Under the pieces are notes generated by a model. The model had not been told where the DNA came from. It saw only the letters and a list, made by a program, of their open reading frames with translations, and ran no database searches. The position numbers were made by a program, and so were the translations under genes. This document shows, piece by piece, positions 25-4,721 of a DNA stretch of 4,794 nucleotides (position 1 is the stretch's first letter; each line of letters opens with the position of its first letter). Source of the stretch: a virus (taxonomy: Duplodnaviria > Heunggongvirae > Uroviricota > Caudoviricetes); the IMG/VR virus record IMGVR_UViG_2648501669_000016, positions 1 through 4,794 of that record; one strand, written 5' to 3'.

Positions 25-459
25 TCAGAATGGCGCTTCATCGTCGAATGGTGGGCGCTGGTCGTATTCATCACGGGTTGACTGCTGCGCACGTCTCAGC
101 GCGTCCGTCGCCTGTCCCCGCTGGCTATTTTTGCCTCCCTGTCGCACCGTTCGCGCACTGATTACGCTGTCTGCGATAACCTGCCAGCCCTGCCGCGTTT
201 CGCCGTTCTGGCCTGTCCACTGGTTCACCTGCATGTTACCCGCCACGCTCACAAGGTCGCCTTTGTGGTGCTTTGCCAGTGCGTCGGCCTGTCTGCCAAA
301 GGCAGTTACGGCAAGCCATAGCGTCGCCTGCCCGTCGTCTGCGTTATGGCACGGCACTGATACCGCCATGCGTGCCAGCGTCATGCTTGTGCCTTTGCTG
401 GTCTGTTTTACCTGCGGCTCGTCCACCAGCCGCCCGTATGCTGAAATTTGTGCTGTCAT
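25..459 (-). CDS. ssb: Single-stranded DNA-binding protein (SSB family, OB fold plus acidic C-terminal tail)
   Basis: The translation matches the SSB pattern: GRL..EP near the N-terminus, W-x-x-V-x-x-FG...KG..V.V.G.....WT.Q.G..R in the OB-fold core (LWLAVTAFGRQADALAKHHKGDLVSVAGNMQVNQWTGQNGETRQGW), and a C-terminal tail PPFDDEAPF resembling the canonical SSB tip DDDIPF. The stop codon is TGA at 27..25. The start is placed at ATG 459..457, which overlaps the upstream ORF stop as TAATG; an in-frame GTG at 468 is an alternative start (the ORF track runs 25..468). Confidence 0.8.
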   Translation of the reverse strand: MTAQISAYGRLVDEPQVKQTSKGTSMTLARMAVSVPCHNADDGQATLWLAVTAFGRQADALAKHHKGDLVSVAGNMQVNQWTGQNGETRQGWQVIADSVISARTVRQGGKNSQRGQATDALRRAQQSTRDEYDQRPPFDDEAPF

Positions 460-668
460 TAAGCGCACTCCATTCTTGATAACGTGTCGTCAATATTCCC
501 AGCGGCTCGTTTCAGGTAGTCCATGCTGTCATTTAGTCGGGATAATTCGCCAGCCAGTAACAAGGCCGCCGCCTCCTGCGCGGTGAACCCCTGCGCTTCA
601 ATCTCTCTAACAACTTCGATCTGCTTTTTATGATGTTCGTTCATTTTTTCGCCCTTTAGCTGAATCAT
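459..668 (-). CDS. Small hypothetical protein (61-69 aa) between the iteron region and ssb; function unknown
   Basis: An ORF on the same strand as ssb, with its stop TAA (461..459) overlapping the ssb ATG (TAATG), which suggests translational coupling. There are two candidate starts: ATG at 668 preceded by a G7 run, and ATG at 644 preceded by AAGGGCG with about 6 nt spacing. The translation (MNEHHKKQIEVVREIEAQGFTAQEAAALLLAGELSRLNDSMDYLKRAAGNIDDTLSRMECA) has no motif I can assign. Confidence 0.5.
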   Translation of the reverse strand: MIQLKGEKMNEHHKKQIEVVREIEAQGFTAQEAAALLLAGELSRLNDSMDYLKRAAGNIDDTLSRMECA

Positions 669-694: not shown

Positions 695-700
695 TGTAAT

Positions 701-946
701 ATCCCTACCAATCCCTACCAATCGATAAAACCCATATGTGGCGCGGCTTTCAGGCTGGTAGGGCATTGTTTTTCTACCCCTACTTATCCCTACCTATCCC
801 TACCAAATACCAAAAAACGGTTATGCGTGGCTTCTTGTTTAGTAGGGATATGTAGGGATATGTAGGGATAAATATATATATCCCTACCAGTCTACAAGCC
901 CCGTCATTACTGGCCTTAAATGACTTTGTAGGGATAGGTAGGGATA
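701..946. repeat. Iteron array; putative origin of replication (ori / cis replication region) of the element
   Basis: Direct-orientation ATCCCTACC copies at 701-709, 711-719, 786-794, 796-804 and 880-888, with a partial copy at 777-783. Inverted-orientation GTAGGGAT copies at 842-849, 852-859, 862-869, 928-935 and 938-945, with a degenerate ggtagggca at 757-765. The tandem copies are spaced 10 bp apart. An AT-rich aatatatata sits at 871-880 between inverted and direct copies. The block is non-coding and lies immediately 3' of the primase-helicase stop at 960-962. Confidence 0.75.
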
Positions 947-959
947 AATCAGGGGTAAA

Positions 960-3416
960 CTATTCATCACCCCCTTCGGCGGTGCTGCTGCCATATGCTC
1001 GCGGTATAAACTCCTCCGCCAACTCATTGATCCCAACGTTCGTCTGCGCTCTGCCGTTAATGCTGCGTGTCAGGTAGTTAGCCCTGTATTCTCTGGCGGC
1101 TGATTTAATCGCCCGTGAGAACTTGTTGACGGAAAGCGGCTTCCCTAGCCCGTGATATTCCATAAAGGCCAAATAAAGGTGATACAGGTAAGTTCTCGGC
1201 TCTGGCTGTCCTGCCCACGTTCCTCCCCCCATCATCATTCCCTTCGGCTCGTTCATAAAATACAAGGCCGCGCACATGTCTATGACCGGATCTGTCCCGC
1301 GCTTAACGCCCAACGCCTCTGCGGAATCGCGCTGCTCGATTAAAAGCGCTTTAGCTTTGTTCTGGTCGGCAAACATTGCCAGCAAGTGACGAATAATTAC
1401 CGGCATTTCACGGCAGATCTTCGCTGTCAGGTCGGGGTCTTTCTCCGCTTCTGATACCGGATTATCGAACGGGAATATCACACGGCGGCGGGCAATGCCC
1501 CCGTTGCGCTCGGTAAAGGTCATTGGTTCGTTGTTGGTTGCGAGAACAACGGCATTTAGCACGGTGGTGAACTGCTTTTCATACTTACCATCAATCTCTA
1601 CTGGGTCGCCGCCTGTAATGGCCTTTATCCCTGCGCCTTCGCCAACATAGCGGGTCTGGTCTGGCATGATAATCAGGCTTTTTCCTACAAGCTGCGCCCG
1701 CCCTCTGGCTGTGTCTAGCGCTCCCATGCTGGCGCTGGCTGTGTTGTGCTCACCTGCCAGTGATACGGCTATGCTGCTGAATACGGATTTCCCACTGCCG
1801 CCCTCGCCAGTTATCTCAATGAATAGCTGCCAGTCGTGACGCTTCGCCAGCACCATAAACAAGGCTGCTTTGATACGCTCGGCCTTATGATGGTCGCCAG
1901 CCGTTGCATGATTCAGCCAACGGGTAAAATTGGGGGCGCTGGTGGTAATATTTTCCCCCGGCGCTGGCGGGGTGTAGGTGATCCCATTGTGGTTCATCAG
2001 CCAGTTACCCGGCGAATGGGCGGAAAACGTCTGCGTAGCGAGGTCATAAACGCCGTTATCAAAACCAATCAGATCCCCGCTCCGCTCACCAATTACCGGT
2101 ATTTGCAGCTTCATGGTTGCGACAACCGATTTAATCCCCTTTTCGGTGTAGTGGGCTTCGTGCTCGTCGAAAATTGCCACCATAACCCTTTCTAATTCGC
2201 TGTCTGGTAGCTTCACCCATACGCCAGATTCGTAGCAGTAAACAGTGCCACTATCTGGGTTAACCGCCAACATATCCCATCGAGATGAAAGCAACCGCGC
2301 TTTCTGGCTGGCTGCCATTTGTGCAATATCTCCGACATCGGCTTTACGGCGGGATTTACCGCCAGCAATGGCCTGTAGTTGTGGTTTCACGCATTCCCCC
2401 TGCGGCCGGTACATCGAATCGTTAATCGCAGCCGTAGCGACTTCCAGCCCGTGTTGCTGGTGGTAGTCGTTCCAGTCAGCTTTGCTGTCAGTCGGTGGCA
2501 GCGATACCCAGCCAGCCACGGATAAAGCTGCTTTCTCTGCGGCCTCCTTCCCGATGTTGGTGGCTCCGGTTTCGGAGGCTGCTGTAGGGTGGTCGTTATC
2601 TGCGGCGATAATAATTTGCGACTGCGGGTATTTCCGGCGCATTACTCCGGCAACGTGGATCAGGTTCCCGGCGTCAATTGCTGCCACTGCCAGCGCGTCC
2701 GGGCGCATCAGGTGAACAGACAGAGCGGTAGCCAGCCCCTCGGCAATTAAAACGCTCTGCGGCGATTCTGGCGCGTTTACGGCGTGATATGCCCCGCGCT
2801 TTGCTGAACCTGTCAGGAGTCGCTTCTCTCCCTGCGGTGTAATGGTTTGCGCTGCTGCCACTGCGCCGGATTCGTCCACCAGCTCCAGCAATAACGAACC
2901 ATCCGGCATAACCGGATAGTTAAACCCGGTCAGCCCTTTTGATTGCAGGTAATCAGATTCGCCCTGTGTGGCACTCTGGCGCATTCCGGCATACAGATGG
3001 GCAAACGTAGCCCTTCGCTGCTCTGCGTCCTCTGCTGCCTGTTTCTGGCGCTCCTGCTCACGCTGCTGGCGGTCGGCTTCCAGTTGCTCTCTTCTATGGC
3101 TCGCTGCCGCCGGGTCGGTTTGCGCTGCCCGGTAATCAATACCCAGCACGTCAGCGGCAAGCTGTGCCGCCTCCGTGGTGTCGCAGTTGTTAACCCGCTT
3201 GATTAAATCCAGCCCGTCACCAGCGCCACACTGGTTGCAGATAAAGCTACCGCGCCCGTTGTCGTCGAATCTGAAACGGTCTTTTCCACCACATGCAGGG
3301 CAGGGAGCATGACGGCGCGGAGAGTCAGGGACATTTATGTTCAGGCAGCCCAGCACATGAGGCCAGTTGTTTTCAGACGCACTGATAACCTGACGGATAA
3401 GATCAATGTTTCGCAT
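960..3416 (-). CDS. Primase-helicase fusion protein (zinc ribbon + TOPRIM-type primase + SF3 / P4-alpha-type helicase); replication initiator of a mobile element
   Basis: An 818-819 aa ORF. A CxxC-17-CxxC zinc ribbon (CPACGG...CNQCGAG) is encoded around 3228..3302. The primase region carries the conserved glutamate motif IAEGLATA and the acidic motif IIAADNDH. The helicase region has Walker A GEGGSGKS (nt 1785..1808), a Walker-B-like LIIMPD and an SF3 motif-C-like VLATNN. A charged E/Q/R-rich linker lies between the zinc ribbon and the primase domain. The start is placed at ATG 3416..3414; an in-frame GTG at 3419 is one codon upstream (the ORF track runs 960..3419). Confidence 0.9.
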   Translation of the reverse strand: MRNIDLIRQVISASENNWPHVLGCLNINVPDSPRRHAPCPACGGKDRFRFDDNGRGSFICNQCGAGDGLDLIKRVNNCDTTEAAQLAADVLGIDYRAAQTDPAAASHRREQLEADRQQREQERQKQAAEDAEQRRATFAHLYAGMRQSATQGESDYLQSKGLTGFNYPVMPDGSLLLELVDESGAVAAAQTITPQGEKRLLTGSAKRGAYHAVNAPESPQSVLIAEGLATALSVHLMRPDALAVAAIDAGNLIHVAGVMRRKYPQSQIIIAADNDHPTAASETGATNIGKEAAEKAALSVAGWVSLPPTDSKADWNDYHQQHGLEVATAAINDSMYRPQGECVKPQLQAIAGGKSRRKADVGDIAQMAASQKARLLSSRWDMLAVNPDSGTVYCYESGVWVKLPDSELERVMVAIFDEHEAHYTEKGIKSVVATMKLQIPVIGERSGDLIGFDNGVYDLATQTFSAHSPGNWLMNHNGITYTPPAPGENITTSAPNFTRWLNHATAGDHHKAERIKAALFMVLAKRHDWQLFIEITGEGGSGKSVFSSIAVSLAGEHNTASASMGALDTARGRAQLVGKSLIIMPDQTRYVGEGAGIKAITGGDPVEIDGKYEKQFTTVLNAVVLATNNEPMTFTERNGGIARRRVIFPFDNPVSEAEKDPDLTAKICREMPVIIRHLLAMFADQNKAKALLIEQRDSAEALGVKRGTDPVIDMCAALYFMNEPKGMMMGGGTWAGQPEPRTYLYHLYLAFMEYHGLGKPLSVNKFSRAIKSAAREYRANYLTRSINGRAQTNVGINELAEEFIPRAYGSSTAEGGDE

Positions 3417-3774
3417 CACCGTACCCCACGTGGTCTATAGCGTTTGCGATATGGCTAACCAGCATCTGCCACTTGGTTATTCCGTAATCAGTCAGCATGC
3501 CATCATTGTTTAGCCACATATCAAATTCAGCGGTTGTCGCAAGTTTCCACTTATCGCCGTGGACAGTCCTCATTGCTGGGTACATGAATGCGCAAATCAG
3601 ATCACAAACATCTGACGGCTTCAGAGATGTAGTAATGGTGCGTCCCTCTGGCGTCTGAATTGCCATTTTCTCTTCACCAGTAGAATGAAGGTTATGAATC
3701 CACACAGCACCAGCAATCTTTGCCACCTGCTCTCCGATTGCGGAGCTAAGCGCCATTTCTACATTTTCACGCAT
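3403..3774 (-). CDS. Hypothetical protein (123 aa), translationally coupled to the primase-helicase gene
   Basis: The ATG at 3774 is preceded by a strong SD (GGGAGG, 5 nt spacer). The stop at 3405..3403 overlaps the primase start by 14 nt. Same strand as its neighbours, no gaps. I recognise no motif. Confidence 0.6.
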   Translation of the reverse strand: MRENVEMALSSAIGEQVAKIAGAVWIHNLHSTGEEKMAIQTPEGRTITTSLKPSDVCDLICAFMYPAMRTVHGDKWKLATTAEFDMWLNNDGMLTDYGITKWQMLVSHIANAIDHVGYGDAKH

Positions 3775-4108
3775 GAGAACCTCCCGCTACAGTTGCGCCC
3801 ATGTCATTAACCATGCTTTGCCATATCTCACGCCCGACGTCAGTCAATCTGTCCTTAGTGACGCAACGATCAAGAAGCTCGATCCCCACGGTTTCCCACT
3901 GCGGGTAGAACACTTTCATGGCTGCCAGTGTGTAGCTATCGATCAGGCTGCGAACGCCTTTTACTCCATTGACGATTTCCACACGGACGGCCTCTCCGTC
4001 CGCATCAATCATGAAATAGTCCCCGCCGCTGGTGGAGGTAATGTGGTTATACAGTGCTGACGCATACTTATTTGCCAGCGCATTCAGTCGGAAATTTTTA
4101 GTAATCAT
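3767..4108 (-). CDS. Hypothetical protein (113 aa)
   Basis: The ATG at 4108 is preceded by GGATGGAGCC, containing a GGAG SD. Its last codons (..GGSHA, nt GGGAGGTTCTCATGCGTGA) encode the SD and start of the next gene, with an 8-nt overlap ATGCGTGA. I recognise no motif. Confidence 0.6.
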   Translation of the reverse strand: MITKNFRLNALANKYASALYNHITSTSGGDYFMIDADGEAVRVEIVNGVKGVRSLIDSYTLAAMKVFYPQWETVGIELLDRCVTKDRLTDVGREIWQSMVNDMGATVAGGSHA

Positions 4109-4118
4109 GGCTCCATCC

Positions 4119-4721
4119 TCAGTGCGTCACTGGTTCCGCTGGCATGCCGTTTTCATTCAGTTCAGCTATAAAGCTGTTGTGAAGTTCAGCAAGCGTTTCA
4201 CGACCAAATGGAGTCAGTGCTCCTTGTTCCACATCCATCATGGCTCTGTAGAAAATGATGGCGCGTTCTGTGCCAGACTCGATGCCAAAACGTTCTATCA
4301 TCGCGCCCTCAATGTTGTTTGCCATAGCGAGGCGCTCTGCTACTGGATACAGCGACATGGCGACGATGCCGTTGGAATAAACAGCCACTTCGGAAGGATT
4401 GCCAGTATCATCAATGATGCTGACAGTGCCGTTTTCCTTTCTCATTTCATTGATGAATGCTGTTGCTATCAGCCAGCGCCACATAATCACGTGATGCTGT
4501 GATGTGTAATCGAAATATCCCTGGTTGCCGCCACTGGCAATAGCGAGATGTATAAACATGCCTTCATCTGGTTTATCGTCATAATCCCCGGCATCCAGAC
4601 GATTTACGGCATCAATATATGAGACGGTCTCAACGCGTTCTGTCATGCCATCGTTGCTGCGGTACATGATGTTTACGCCGTCAGGCGTTGCTTCTGCATG
4701 GAAAGTTAAGAAATTATTCAT
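4119..4721 (-). CDS. Hypothetical protein (200 aa from ATG 4721; 211 aa if started at ATG 4754)
   Basis: A long minus-strand ORF. The ATG at 4721 has a GAGG SD 6 nt upstream and overlaps the stop of the upstream partial ORF (ATGAATAA), so I prefer it as the start. The ATG at 4754 is in frame but lacks an obvious SD. The stop TGA at 4121..4119 lies 10 nt before the next start. Function unknown. Confidence 0.6.
   Translation of the reverse strand: MNNFLTFHAEATPDGVNIMYRSNDGMTERVETVSYIDAVNRLDAGDYDDKPDEGMFIHLAIASGGNQGYFDYTSQHHVIMWRWLIATAFINEMRKENGTVSIIDDTGNPSEVAVYSNGIVAMSLYPVAERLAMANNIEGAMIERFGIESGTERAIIFYRAMMDVEQGALTPFGRETLAELHNSFIAELNENGMPAEPVTH

What the first reader, a model, noticed from the sequence alone, without database searches (positions are those of the whole stretch)
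701..946. Dense bi-directional iteron array directly downstream of the primase-helicase gene: candidate origin of replication
About 11 copies of a 9-mer (ATCCCTACC and its reverse complement) are packed into roughly 250 non-coding bp. They form tandem pairs and triplets at exactly 10-bp (one helical turn) spacing and sit in both orientations around a short AT-rich centre. The block starts about 15 bp past the stop of a P4-alpha-type primase-helicase. In phage P4 the alpha protein binds short iterons in ori and crr, and PICI-type elements place their ori 3' of the rep gene. This iteron sequence (TCCCTAC) differs from the P4 type I iteron (TGTTCACC), so it may define a distinct specificity group.
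Basis: partly seen in the sequence, partly recalled or inferred. Interest (0 to 1): 0.7.

Follow-up and report, generated by a model that had tools for sequence, protein, structure and literature searches.

The report
Replication origin of a phage satellite
The repeat block is almost certainly the replication origin of a 12.4-kb phage-parasitic island (a PICI-type satellite), where the island's own primase-helicase binds; this kind of origin is already known, and this one differs only in using a repeat sequence not previously described.

Summary
Twelve copies of (A/T)TCCCTAC(C) lie in window 701-945: ten with at most 1 mismatch and two degenerate. They are laid out as 2→ 1← 3→ | 3← 1→ 2←, with 10-bp spacing inside each set, and start 14 bp after the stop of an 819-aa P4-alpha-type primase-helicase. 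The exact 7-mer occurs 10 times here, nowhere else in the window, and nowhere else in the 12.4-kb element (P about 6e-25).

The element runs int – AlpA – … – primase-helicase – repeats – small ORF – SSB – PerC and is bounded by 12-bp att repeats. This is a Gram-negative PICI. The tested origin of EcCICFT073, and EcCIRM13514, have the same position, gene neighbourhood and 2-1-3-3-1-2 layout, but different 8-mers.

Across 78 relatives, 54 carry such an array 3' of the gene. The repeat sequence tracks a short motif in the C-terminal domain, which is homologous to the P4 origin-binding domain (PDB 1KA8). In diverged lineages the repeats are conserved and the spacers are not.

One correction: in P4 the array 3' of alpha is crr, not ori, so the PICI origin is the better model. 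This is a new member of a known kind. Replication itself is untested here.

The parts
695..950 (.). Whole candidate origin. It is an imperfect palindrome of about 250 bp holding 12 iterons arranged 2→ 1← 3→ | 3← 1→ 2← when read from the primase stop.
   Evidence: The region folds as one long DNA hairpin (z = -8.2). GC is 43% against 53% for the window.
701..719 (+). Distal iteron pair: ATCCCTACC at 701-709 and 711-719, 10 bp apart.
   Evidence: exact matches.
757..765 (-). Single degenerate iteron (TGCCCTACC on the minus strand).
   Evidence: 2 mismatches. A repeat sits at the same position in relatives and in EcCICFT073 and EcCIRM13514.
776..804 (+). Iteron triplet at 776 (degenerate, ACCCCTACT), 786 and 796 (exact), at 10-bp spacing.
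805..840 (.). Central spacer that contains the dyad axis of the array (36% GC).
   Evidence: (repeat pair I1).
841..869 (-). Iteron triplet at 841, 851 and 861 (one mismatch each, at the last base), at 10-bp spacing.
869..880 (.). TA-rich tract AAATATATATAT. It is the least stable duplex in the window and a candidate site of first melting.
   Evidence: the 25-mer at 857-881 has dG -23.6, against a window mean of -34.9 (sd 3.0).
880..888 (+). Single iteron (exact).
927..945 (-). Proximal iteron pair (927 with one mismatch, 937 exact). It ends 14 bp from the primase stop codon.
960..3419 (-). Pri-Rep: an 819-aa P4-alpha-type primase-helicase. Zn ribbon about 3210-3317, Toprim about 2448-2753, SF3 helicase about 1278-2174.
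1020..1295 (-). C-terminal origin-binding domain of Pri-Rep (residues 709-800). It contains the motif SINGRAQTNV (1035-1064), which varies together with the iteron sequence.
   Evidence: PDB 1KA8, E = 1.1e-8.
459..668 (-). 69-aa ORF directly downstream of the origin. It is not the iteron binder: L001 and L002 have the same iterons but an unrelated 100-aa ORF here.
25..468 (-). Island-encoded single-stranded DNA-binding protein, a likely accessory to replication.
   Evidence: The order pri-rep / ori / small ORF / SSB / PerC is shared with EcCICFT073.

Best explanation
The block is the replication origin of a 12.4-kb Gram-negative PICI-type phage satellite.

Proposed mechanism. A helper phage switches on the island's AlpA-driven operon, and the Pri-Rep primase-helicase is made. 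Its C-terminal winged-helix-type domain binds the twelve 8-9-bp iterons. Within each set the sites are 10 bp apart, so bound proteins sit on one face of the helix. The two mirror-image halves of the array (2→ 1← 3→ and 3← 1→ 2←) would load the SF3 helicase in opposite orientations. The DNA opens at the weakest point, which is either the TA tract at 869-880 or the AT-rich central spacer. The Toprim primase domain lays down primers and the host polymerase extends them. The SSB gene just downstream probably assists.

What is shown: the repeats, their enrichment and their layout; homology of the C-terminal domain to the P4 origin-binding domain; identity of position, gene neighbourhood and layout with an experimentally tested PICI origin; conservation of iterons but not spacers; and co-variation of iteron sequence with the C-terminal motif.

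What is inferred: actual binding, the melting site, bidirectional loading, and helper dependence.
For: Enrichment. There are 10 exact cores in 245 bp against 0.33 expected for the whole window, and 3 in 67.5 kb of E. coli flanks. All 10 cores in the complete 12.4-kb element lie in this block.

Element context. The gene order is int, AlpA, AntA, DUF4222, pri-rep, [array], small ORF, SSB, PerC. The att repeats CTCCTATTATCG lie 12.4 kb apart and match the core of the published PICI CnCIND14b.

Published model. PICI origins lie immediately 3' of pri-rep as two iteron sets around an AT-rich region. Cloned EcCICFT073 pri-rep plus ori maintained a plasmid; the rep mutant gave no colonies and deleting the ori significantly reduced them (PMC6092414).

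Same layout. EcCICFT073 and EcCIRM13514 show the same 2-1-3-3-1-2 pattern at nearly the same offsets from the stop codon, with iterons T(G/A/C)TCTACC and TGTTCACC respectively.

Family-wide feature. 54 of 78 relatives have at least 8 copies of an 8-mer within 300 bp 3' of the gene, against 2 of 234 control segments.

Co-variation of C-terminal motif and iteron core:
- GRAQTNV goes with CCCTAC (7 of 7 loci).
- GR(R/K)QTNV goes with ATCTAC (6 of 6).
- GKTQTNV and GVTQTNV go with CTCTAC (L006 and L009; a third locus with GVTQTNV, L007, has no array).
- GRTISNV goes with GTCTAC.
- GIRSN(L/M), GIQTNL and GVRSNV go with GTTCAC or ATTCAC, the P4 repeat.

Two informative contrasts. The L088 and L027 Rep proteins are 73.5% identical but differ in this motif and in their iterons. 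EcCICFT073 Rep has a different N-terminal primase but a related C-terminus and a related iteron.

Selection. Iteron columns are 79-88% identical, against 45-56% for spacers, between the diverged lineages WIN, L001 and L005 (Fisher p 1e-6 to 2e-8).

DNA-binding domain. Residues 709-800 match 1KA8 at E = 1e-8.

Stability. The least stable duplex of the window lies inside the array.
Against: No experiment on this element exists, so binding and replication are inferred.

In P4, the closest characterised Rep, the array at this position is crr, a cis-acting helper site, not the initiation site.

The TA tract is only about 12 bp and is off the dyad axis, so the melting site is uncertain.

Co-variation is partly confounded by shared ancestry, because clades share both the protein motif and the iteron.

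One relative with a related motif (L007) has no array at this position.

Both structure predictions of the C-terminal domain had low confidence. That the co-varying motif is a DNA-contacting wing is therefore unproven.
Confidence: 0.85

Rival explanations
1. The array is a crr-like element. Pri-Rep binds it and replication needs it in cis, but initiation happens at another site, as in phage P4, where the array directly 3' of alpha is crr and the ori lies 4.5 kb away.
For: The P4 GenBank annotation places crr (4291-4590) immediately 3' of alpha (stop at 4636) and the ori at 9086-9809. The Rep proteins are homologous.
Against: The complete 12.4-kb element has no second iteron cluster. All 10 cores lie in this block, and the three other CCCTAC 6-mers are isolated singletons. 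In EcCICFT073, pri-rep plus only this 3' region sufficed for plasmid maintenance (PMC6092414).
Confidence: 0.07
2. The repeats are mainly a transcriptional control region: operators through which Pri-Rep or another island protein regulates the downstream small-ORF / ssb / perC genes or terminates pri-rep transcription.
For: The block lies between two co-oriented gene groups. Iteron-binding initiators of plasmids often also autoregulate (general knowledge).
Against: No sigma-70-like promoter was found on the coding (minus) strand, and no intrinsic terminator, in 400-1100. The downstream ORF is swapped for an unrelated one in L001 and L002 while the iterons are kept. The layout is that of a tested origin. 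A secondary regulatory role is not excluded.
Confidence: 0.04
3. The block is a different kind of cis site: packaging (cos/pac), partition, or integrase arm sites.
For: Satellites carry helper cos or pac sites, and short repeats are typical of arm and centromere-like sites.
Against: In EcCICFT073 the lambda-type cosN lies elsewhere (supplementary Fig. S5). Candidate arm-type repeats (ATGGGGGTA…) lie next to the att ends, not here. The repeat sequence tracks the Rep C-terminal domain. No similar DNA is found in 50,697 phage records.
Confidence: 0.02
4. The repeats are a chance or selfish repeat cluster with no function.
For: None beyond the general frequency of short repeats in intergenic DNA.
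Against: P is about 6e-25. Iterons are conserved while spacers have diverged. Arrays are present 3' of the gene in 54 of 78 relatives across many genera.
Confidence: 0.005

Closest known systems
Replication origins of Gram-negative PICIs, especially EcCICFT073 (Fillol-Salom et al. 2018, ISME J, PMC6092414)
   Same: Both lie immediately 3' of pri-rep. The flanking genes are the same (pri-rep / ori / small ORF / SSB / PerC). The block is about 250 bp with 8-9-bp iterons in the same 2→1←3→|3←1→2← layout at nearly the same offsets. The Rep C-terminal domains are homologous, and the element plan is the same: int – alpA – … – pri-rep, about 12 kb.
   Different: The iteron is TCCCTACC rather than T(G/A/C)TCTACC. 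Pri-Rep here is 819 aa with a Zn-ribbon and Toprim primase like P4 alpha, whereas EcCICFT073 Pri-Rep is 584 aa with a different N-terminus. No lambda-type cosN and no capsid genes were seen in this element. This origin has not been tested experimentally.
Phage P4 alpha protein with its ori and crr sites (type I repeat TGTTCACC)
   Same: The multidomain primase-helicase is homologous, and the C-terminal origin-binding domain matches 1KA8. Both have short 8-bp repeats in both orientations directly 3' of the gene. The repeats look related: T-N-T/C-N-N-A-C-C.
   Different: The repeat sequence differs. P4 has two separate clusters (ori and crr, 4.5 kb apart) and this element has one. P4 crr is two 120-bp direct repeats, whereas this array is a single palindrome. 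The precomputed Pfam families listed for the element's genes include none for psu, and six products have no family on record; sid and delta were not specifically searched for.
SaPI / Gram-positive PICI origins
   Same: The origin lies 3' of the rep gene, with two iteron sets flanking an AT-rich region and Rep-specific iterons (as summarised in PMC6092414).
   Different: The Rep protein lineage, the iteron sequences and the host range all differ. The comparison rests on the paper's description; no SaPI sequence was examined here.
Iteron-type theta plasmid origins (RepA/pi/TrfA class)
   Same: An element-encoded initiator binds repeated sites next to an AT-rich region.
   Different: Plasmid iterons are about 17-22 bp direct repeats and work with DnaA boxes and host DnaB/DnaG (general knowledge). 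Here the repeats are 8-9 bp and run in both orientations. No DnaA box, IHF consensus or GATC is present, and the initiator carries its own helicase and primase.

Membership tests
Gram-negative PICI replication origin | Lies immediately 3' of the pri-rep gene | tested here: met
   The nearest iteron ends 14 bp after the stop codon of the 960..3419(-) ORF.
Gram-negative PICI replication origin | [quoted passage not shown] | tested here: met
   Six iterons lie on each side of the 36%-GC spacer 805-840. The TA tract at 869-880 is the least stable duplex in the window.
Gram-negative PICI replication origin | Host element has PICI organisation: int, alpA and pri-rep transcribed in one direction, about 10-15 kb, own att site, no phage structural or lysis genes | tested here: met
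   In L084/L085 the order is int, AlpA, AntA, …, pri-rep, SSB, PerC. The 12-bp att repeats lie 12.4 kb apart and match the CnCIND14b core. No structural genes appear in the precomputed Pfam hits. Absence of structural genes rests on Pfam hits only.
Gram-negative PICI replication origin | Same architecture as an experimentally validated PICI origin | tested here: met
   EcCICFT073 has hits at offsets 15, 24, 72, 92, 103, 112, 145, 156, 176, 224, 233. The window has hits at 15, 25, 73, 91, 101, 111, 157, 167, 177, (196), 242, 252. Orientations match throughout.
Gram-negative PICI replication origin | Supports Pri-Rep-dependent autonomous replication | not testable with these tools
   Needs cloning into a conditional vector, with and without pri-rep and with and without the block.
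Gram-negative PICI replication origin | Element is induced by, and packaged by, a helper phage | not testable with these tools
   No helper phage was identified. No lambda-type cosN was found in the element.
Phage P4 ori/crr system | Initiator with an alpha-type C-terminal origin-binding domain | tested here: met
   Residues 709-800 match 1KA8 at E = 1.1e-8. TIGR01613 (P4-family primase) is hit just at its cut-off.
Phage P4 ori/crr system | Type I repeat TGTTCACC | tested here: not met
   The repeat here is TCCCTACC. The P4 repeat was verified in NC_001609.
Phage P4 ori/crr system | Two separate repeat clusters (ori and crr), both required in cis | tested here: not met
   There is a single cluster in the complete 12.4-kb element.
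Phage P4 ori/crr system | P4 satellite gene set (sid, delta, psu, epsilon) | tested here: inconclusive
   The Pfam families on record for the genes of L084 and L085 include none for psu. No dedicated profile search for these genes was run.
Iteron-type theta plasmid origin | Long (about 17-22 bp) direct iterons with DnaA boxes | tested here: not met
   The repeats are 8-9 bp and run in both orientations. No DnaA box was found at up to 1 mismatch.

The most novel reading that the evidence does not exclude
The P4-alpha/PICI Pri-Rep family may use a simple, readable specificity code. On this reading, one or two residues in the C-terminal motif G-x-X-Q-T-N-V set the middle bases of the iteron T-N-N-C-T-A-C-C. 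Ala would give CC (this element), Thr would give TC or CT, and Arg/Lys would give AT. A P4-like I-R/Q-S/T-N-L motif would give GTTCAC. This would create mutually non-cross-reacting origin groups, so that several satellites could share a cell. The strictly conserved mirror-image 2-1-3 | 3-1-2 layout would be the platform for head-to-head loading of two helicase hexamers.
Probability: 0.35. Interest if true: 0.5.

Novelty: new member of a known kind. Interest (0 to 1): 0.3.

Why it matters
It fixes the annotation of a widespread but usually unannotated intergenic block. This origin type occurs in 78 of 5,426 complete E. coli genomes and also in Klebsiella, Kluyvera, Atlantibacter and Buttiauxella. 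It identifies the surrounding 'P4-family primase' islands as PICI-type satellites. The comparative table of C-terminal motifs against iterons gives directly testable predictions, for example that changing Ala791 to Thr or Arg should retarget the protein. That would help predict which co-resident satellites can cross-replicate or interfere with one another. The basic biology, an origin 3' of pri-rep made of two iteron sets, is already published.

Tried and rejected
- Megablast and blastn of the window and of the origin against 50,697 phage records found nothing.
- Rfam at a permissive threshold gave only far-sub-threshold miRNA-hairpin hits, caused by the palindrome.
- The promoter/terminator scan found nothing on the coding strand.
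- A search for DnaA, IHF and GATC sites found none.
- A literature search for the iteron sequence itself returned only unrelated primer and I-SceI-type hits. Searches for P4 crr papers and for Pri-Rep specificity papers found nothing beyond PMC6092414; one search failed on a too-short term.
- The single-sequence AlphaFold model of the C-terminal 134 aa (pLDDT 46) and the full-length model from a 19-sequence alignment (pLDDT 59, and below 50 over 773-818) were too poor to place the co-varying motif in a wing. Only a weak hint of a short hairpin after helix 763-782 was seen.
- ED1a (NC_011745) was not in the collection.
- I considered the 69-aa downstream ORF as the iteron binder and rejected it, because relatives keep the iterons while carrying an unrelated ORF there.
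- I considered a second, P4-like ori cluster elsewhere in the element and rejected it.

Full report
**1. The observation**

All sizeable ORFs of the window lie on the minus strand. An 819-aa ORF occupies 960..3419. A 291-bp gap (669-959) follows, then a 69-aa ORF (459..668) and an SSB gene (25..468).

Searching ATCCCTACC on both strands gives 6 exact copies, 4 one-mismatch copies and 2 two-mismatch copies. All twelve fall in 701-945. Outside the block there are only scattered two-mismatch hits.

In window coordinates the order is:
- two forward copies (701, 711);
- one reverse copy (757);
- three forward copies (776, 786, 796);
- a 36-bp spacer;
- three reverse copies (841, 851, 861);
- a 10-12-bp TA tract;
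- one forward copy (880);
- two reverse copies (927, 937).

Spacing inside each set is exactly 10 bp.

The exact 7-mer core occurs 10 times, all in this block. Markov simulations of the window give 0.33 copies in total and never more than 2 in any 250 bp. The Poisson P is about 6e-25. Only 3 copies occur in 67.5 kb of E. coli sequence around related islands.

The array is an imperfect palindrome. The strand 695-950 folds as one long hairpin (z = -8.2), with its axis near 822. The TA tract therefore lies off the axis, but it is the least stable 25-mer of the whole window.

**2. The gene next door**

The 819-aa protein has a primase-helicase Zn ribbon, Toprim, D5_N/DUF5906 (SF3 helicase) and Pox_D5 domains. 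It reaches the TIGR01613 'P4-family primase' cut-off and matches the PHROG primase family phrog_2249 end to end. Residues 709-800 match the solved origin-binding domain of P4 alpha (PDB 1KA8) at E = 1.1e-8. The protein therefore carries a domain of the kind known to bind origin repeats.

**3. The element**

The window is a short E. coli contig (JRQF01000185.1). The identical protein sits on longer contigs. The gene order there is proB, proA | int, a 251-aa ORF, AlpA, AntA, DUF4222, several small ORFs, primase-helicase, [array], 69-aa ORF, SSB, PerC, and a few accessory genes.

The 12-mer CTCCTATTATCG flanks the element 12.4 kb apart. A 12,431-bp read-archive contig begins and ends with that same 12-mer. 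This core matches the att core listed for the published PICI CnCIND14b.

Relatives with 85-91% identity lie between yicC and dinD in E. coli. That site is listed for the PICI EcCIRM13514.

The unidirectional int–alpA–pri-rep plan, the size, the PerC gene and the absence of structural genes all match the Gram-negative PICI description of Fillol-Salom et al. 2018.

**4. Comparison with tested and described PICI origins**

The 2018 paper states that the origin lies immediately 3' of pri-rep and always consists of two iteron sets flanking an AT-rich region. It also reports that cloned EcCICFT073 pri-rep plus this region maintains a plasmid; the rep mutant gave no colonies, and deleting the ori significantly reduced their number.

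I fetched EcCICFT073 and EcCIRM13514. Both have the same gene order: pri-rep / gap / small ORF / SSB / PerC. Their gaps hold 11-12 copies of an 8-mer in the same 2→1←3→3←1→2← order, at nearly the same offsets from the stop codon as in the window. The 8-mers differ:
- EcCICFT073 uses T(G/A/C)TCTACC.
- EcCIRM13514 uses TGTTCACC, the P4 type I repeat.
- The window uses TCCCTACC.

EcCI042 has an unrelated RepA-type helicase and an unrelated iteron, AAGTGAGG, at the same position.

**5. Wider relatives**

A scan of one genome per species with a primase alignment returned 80 loci at 39-90% identity. In 54 of 78 usable loci, some 8-mer occurs at least 8 times (up to 1 mismatch) within 300 bp 3' of the stop. 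The same is true of only 2 of 234 control segments taken from the same loci.

The repeat sequence follows a short C-terminal motif:
- GRAQTNV goes with CCCTAC (7 of 7 loci, including the window).
- GR(R/K)QTNV goes with ATCTAC (6 of 6).
- GKTQTNV and GVTQTNV go with CTCTAC.
- GRTISNV goes with GTCTAC.
- The P4-like GIRSNL, GIQTNL and GVRSNV go with GTTCAC or ATTCAC (more than 40 loci, plus P4 itself).
- GFRYNM, GYSYNV and GYYYNV go with other cores.

This association is partly explained by shared ancestry, but two cases argue for a direct link. First, the Rep proteins of L088 and L027 are 73.5% identical overall, yet they differ in this motif and in their iterons. Second, EcCICFT073 Rep has a different N-terminal primase, yet its iteron follows its C-terminus.

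The downstream small ORF is not the binder. L001 and L002 keep the window's iterons but carry an unrelated 100-aa ORF there.

**6. Selection on the repeats**

I aligned the origin of the window with diverged versions from E. coli, Kluyvera, Atlantibacter, Buttiauxella and IMG/VR contigs. Iteron columns are 79-88% identical between the diverged lineages, while spacers are only 45-56% identical (Fisher p 1e-6 to 2e-8). One relative (L002) is a mosaic of two spacer types with the iterons kept.

**7. What it is not**

- No sigma-70-type promoter on the coding strand and no intrinsic terminator was found.
- There is no Rfam family match.
- There is no DnaA box, IHF consensus or GATC site.
- No similar DNA exists in the phage collection.
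- Five plasmid records match the origin. The best match (94% identity) was inspected and is the same island inserted in a large Klebsiella plasmid.
- The lambda-type cosN of EcCICFT073 lies elsewhere, and this element lacks an exact one.

**8. P4 versus PICI**

The P4 GenBank record places crr directly 3' of alpha. Crr is two 120-bp repeats carrying type I repeats in both orientations. The replication origin proper lies 4.5 kb away. By position, therefore, the window's array corresponds to P4 crr.

The complete 12.4-kb element has no second cluster, and EcCICFT073 needs only this region plus pri-rep. The single-site PICI origin is therefore the better model. I keep 'crr-like helper site only' as a minor rival.

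**9. Mechanism, with its status**

Shown:
- the repeats are real, enriched, conserved and laid out like a tested origin;
- the neighbouring protein has a P4-type origin-binding domain;
- the repeat sequence tracks that domain.

Inferred:
- Pri-Rep binds the 12 sites;
- the two mirror halves load the helicase in both directions;
- DNA opens at the TA tract or at the central spacer;
- the Toprim domain primes;
- the host polymerase and the island SSB complete the fork;
- expression depends on helper-phage-induced AlpA, as reported for EcCICFT073.

Structure predictions of the C-terminal domain were too uncertain to show that the co-varying motif contacts DNA.

**10. Verdict**

The feature is a new member, with a previously undescribed iteron specificity as far as I could search, of the known class of PICI replication origins. 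It is useful for annotation and offers a neat, testable specificity series, but it would not surprise a specialist. Interest is 0.3.

Noticed in passing
L085:1-12431 (Logan ERR4843808); L084:3473 and 15892: A 12,431-bp read-archive contig starts and ends with the att core CTCCTATTATCG. This suggests an assembled circular (excised) form of the island, or an assembly break at the repeat.
   Followed up: partly
L084:3603-3625 and 15810-15832: ATGGGGGTACTT(A/T)TGGGGGTA repeats lie just inside both ends of the island. They are candidate integrase arm-type binding sites.
   Followed up: no
window 741-757 (reverse complement); L087:7181-7195: A non-iteron block, CTGAAAGCC(G/T)(C/T)GCCA, sits in the distal spacer. 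It is shared by this origin, its E. coli relatives, and the EcCICFT073 and ATCC25922 origins, although their iterons differ. Its function is unknown; a host-factor site or a primer start site is possible.
   Followed up: no
L007:6415-6745 (Serratia fonticola): This relative has the GVTQTNV motif but no iteron array 3' of its primase-helicase; coding-looking sequence follows directly. Its origin may lie elsewhere or may have been lost.
   Followed up: no
L088 (EcCIRM13514) versus L027 (Enterobacter hormaechei): The two Rep proteins are 73.5% identical but use different iterons (TGTTCACC versus TGTCTACC). They differ by a 5-residue insertion and substitutions in the C-terminal motif (EG-VRSNV versus RGPDKGRTISNV). 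This looks like a natural specificity switch.
   Followed up: partly
L002:15740-16051: The origin of this E. coli relative is a mosaic. The roughly 95 bp nearest the primase are of the window type and the rest are of the L001 type, which implies recombination inside the origin.
   Followed up: no
L098 (K. pneumoniae plasmid pVA126-339, 292763-311053): The same island type, with a 94%-identical origin, sits on a 339-kb plasmid. An annotated tape-measure protein gene lies a few kb beyond PerC.
   Followed up: no
L036-L077 (Xenorhabdus and Photorhabdus loci): Many loci per genome encode alpha-like primase-helicases with P4-type iterons (GGTGAACA). Their iterons follow the PICI-style 2-1-3-3-…-2 layout rather than P4's duplicated 120-bp crr. 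Up to four such loci occur in one strain (X. innexi, X. ehlersii).
   Followed up: no
window 3403-3419 and 3767-3774: Successive upstream ORFs overlap by 8-17 bp (3403..3774, 3767..4108 and the primase start). This suggests translational coupling in one long operon. The three upstream ORFs match only PHROGs of unknown function, or nothing.
   Followed up: no
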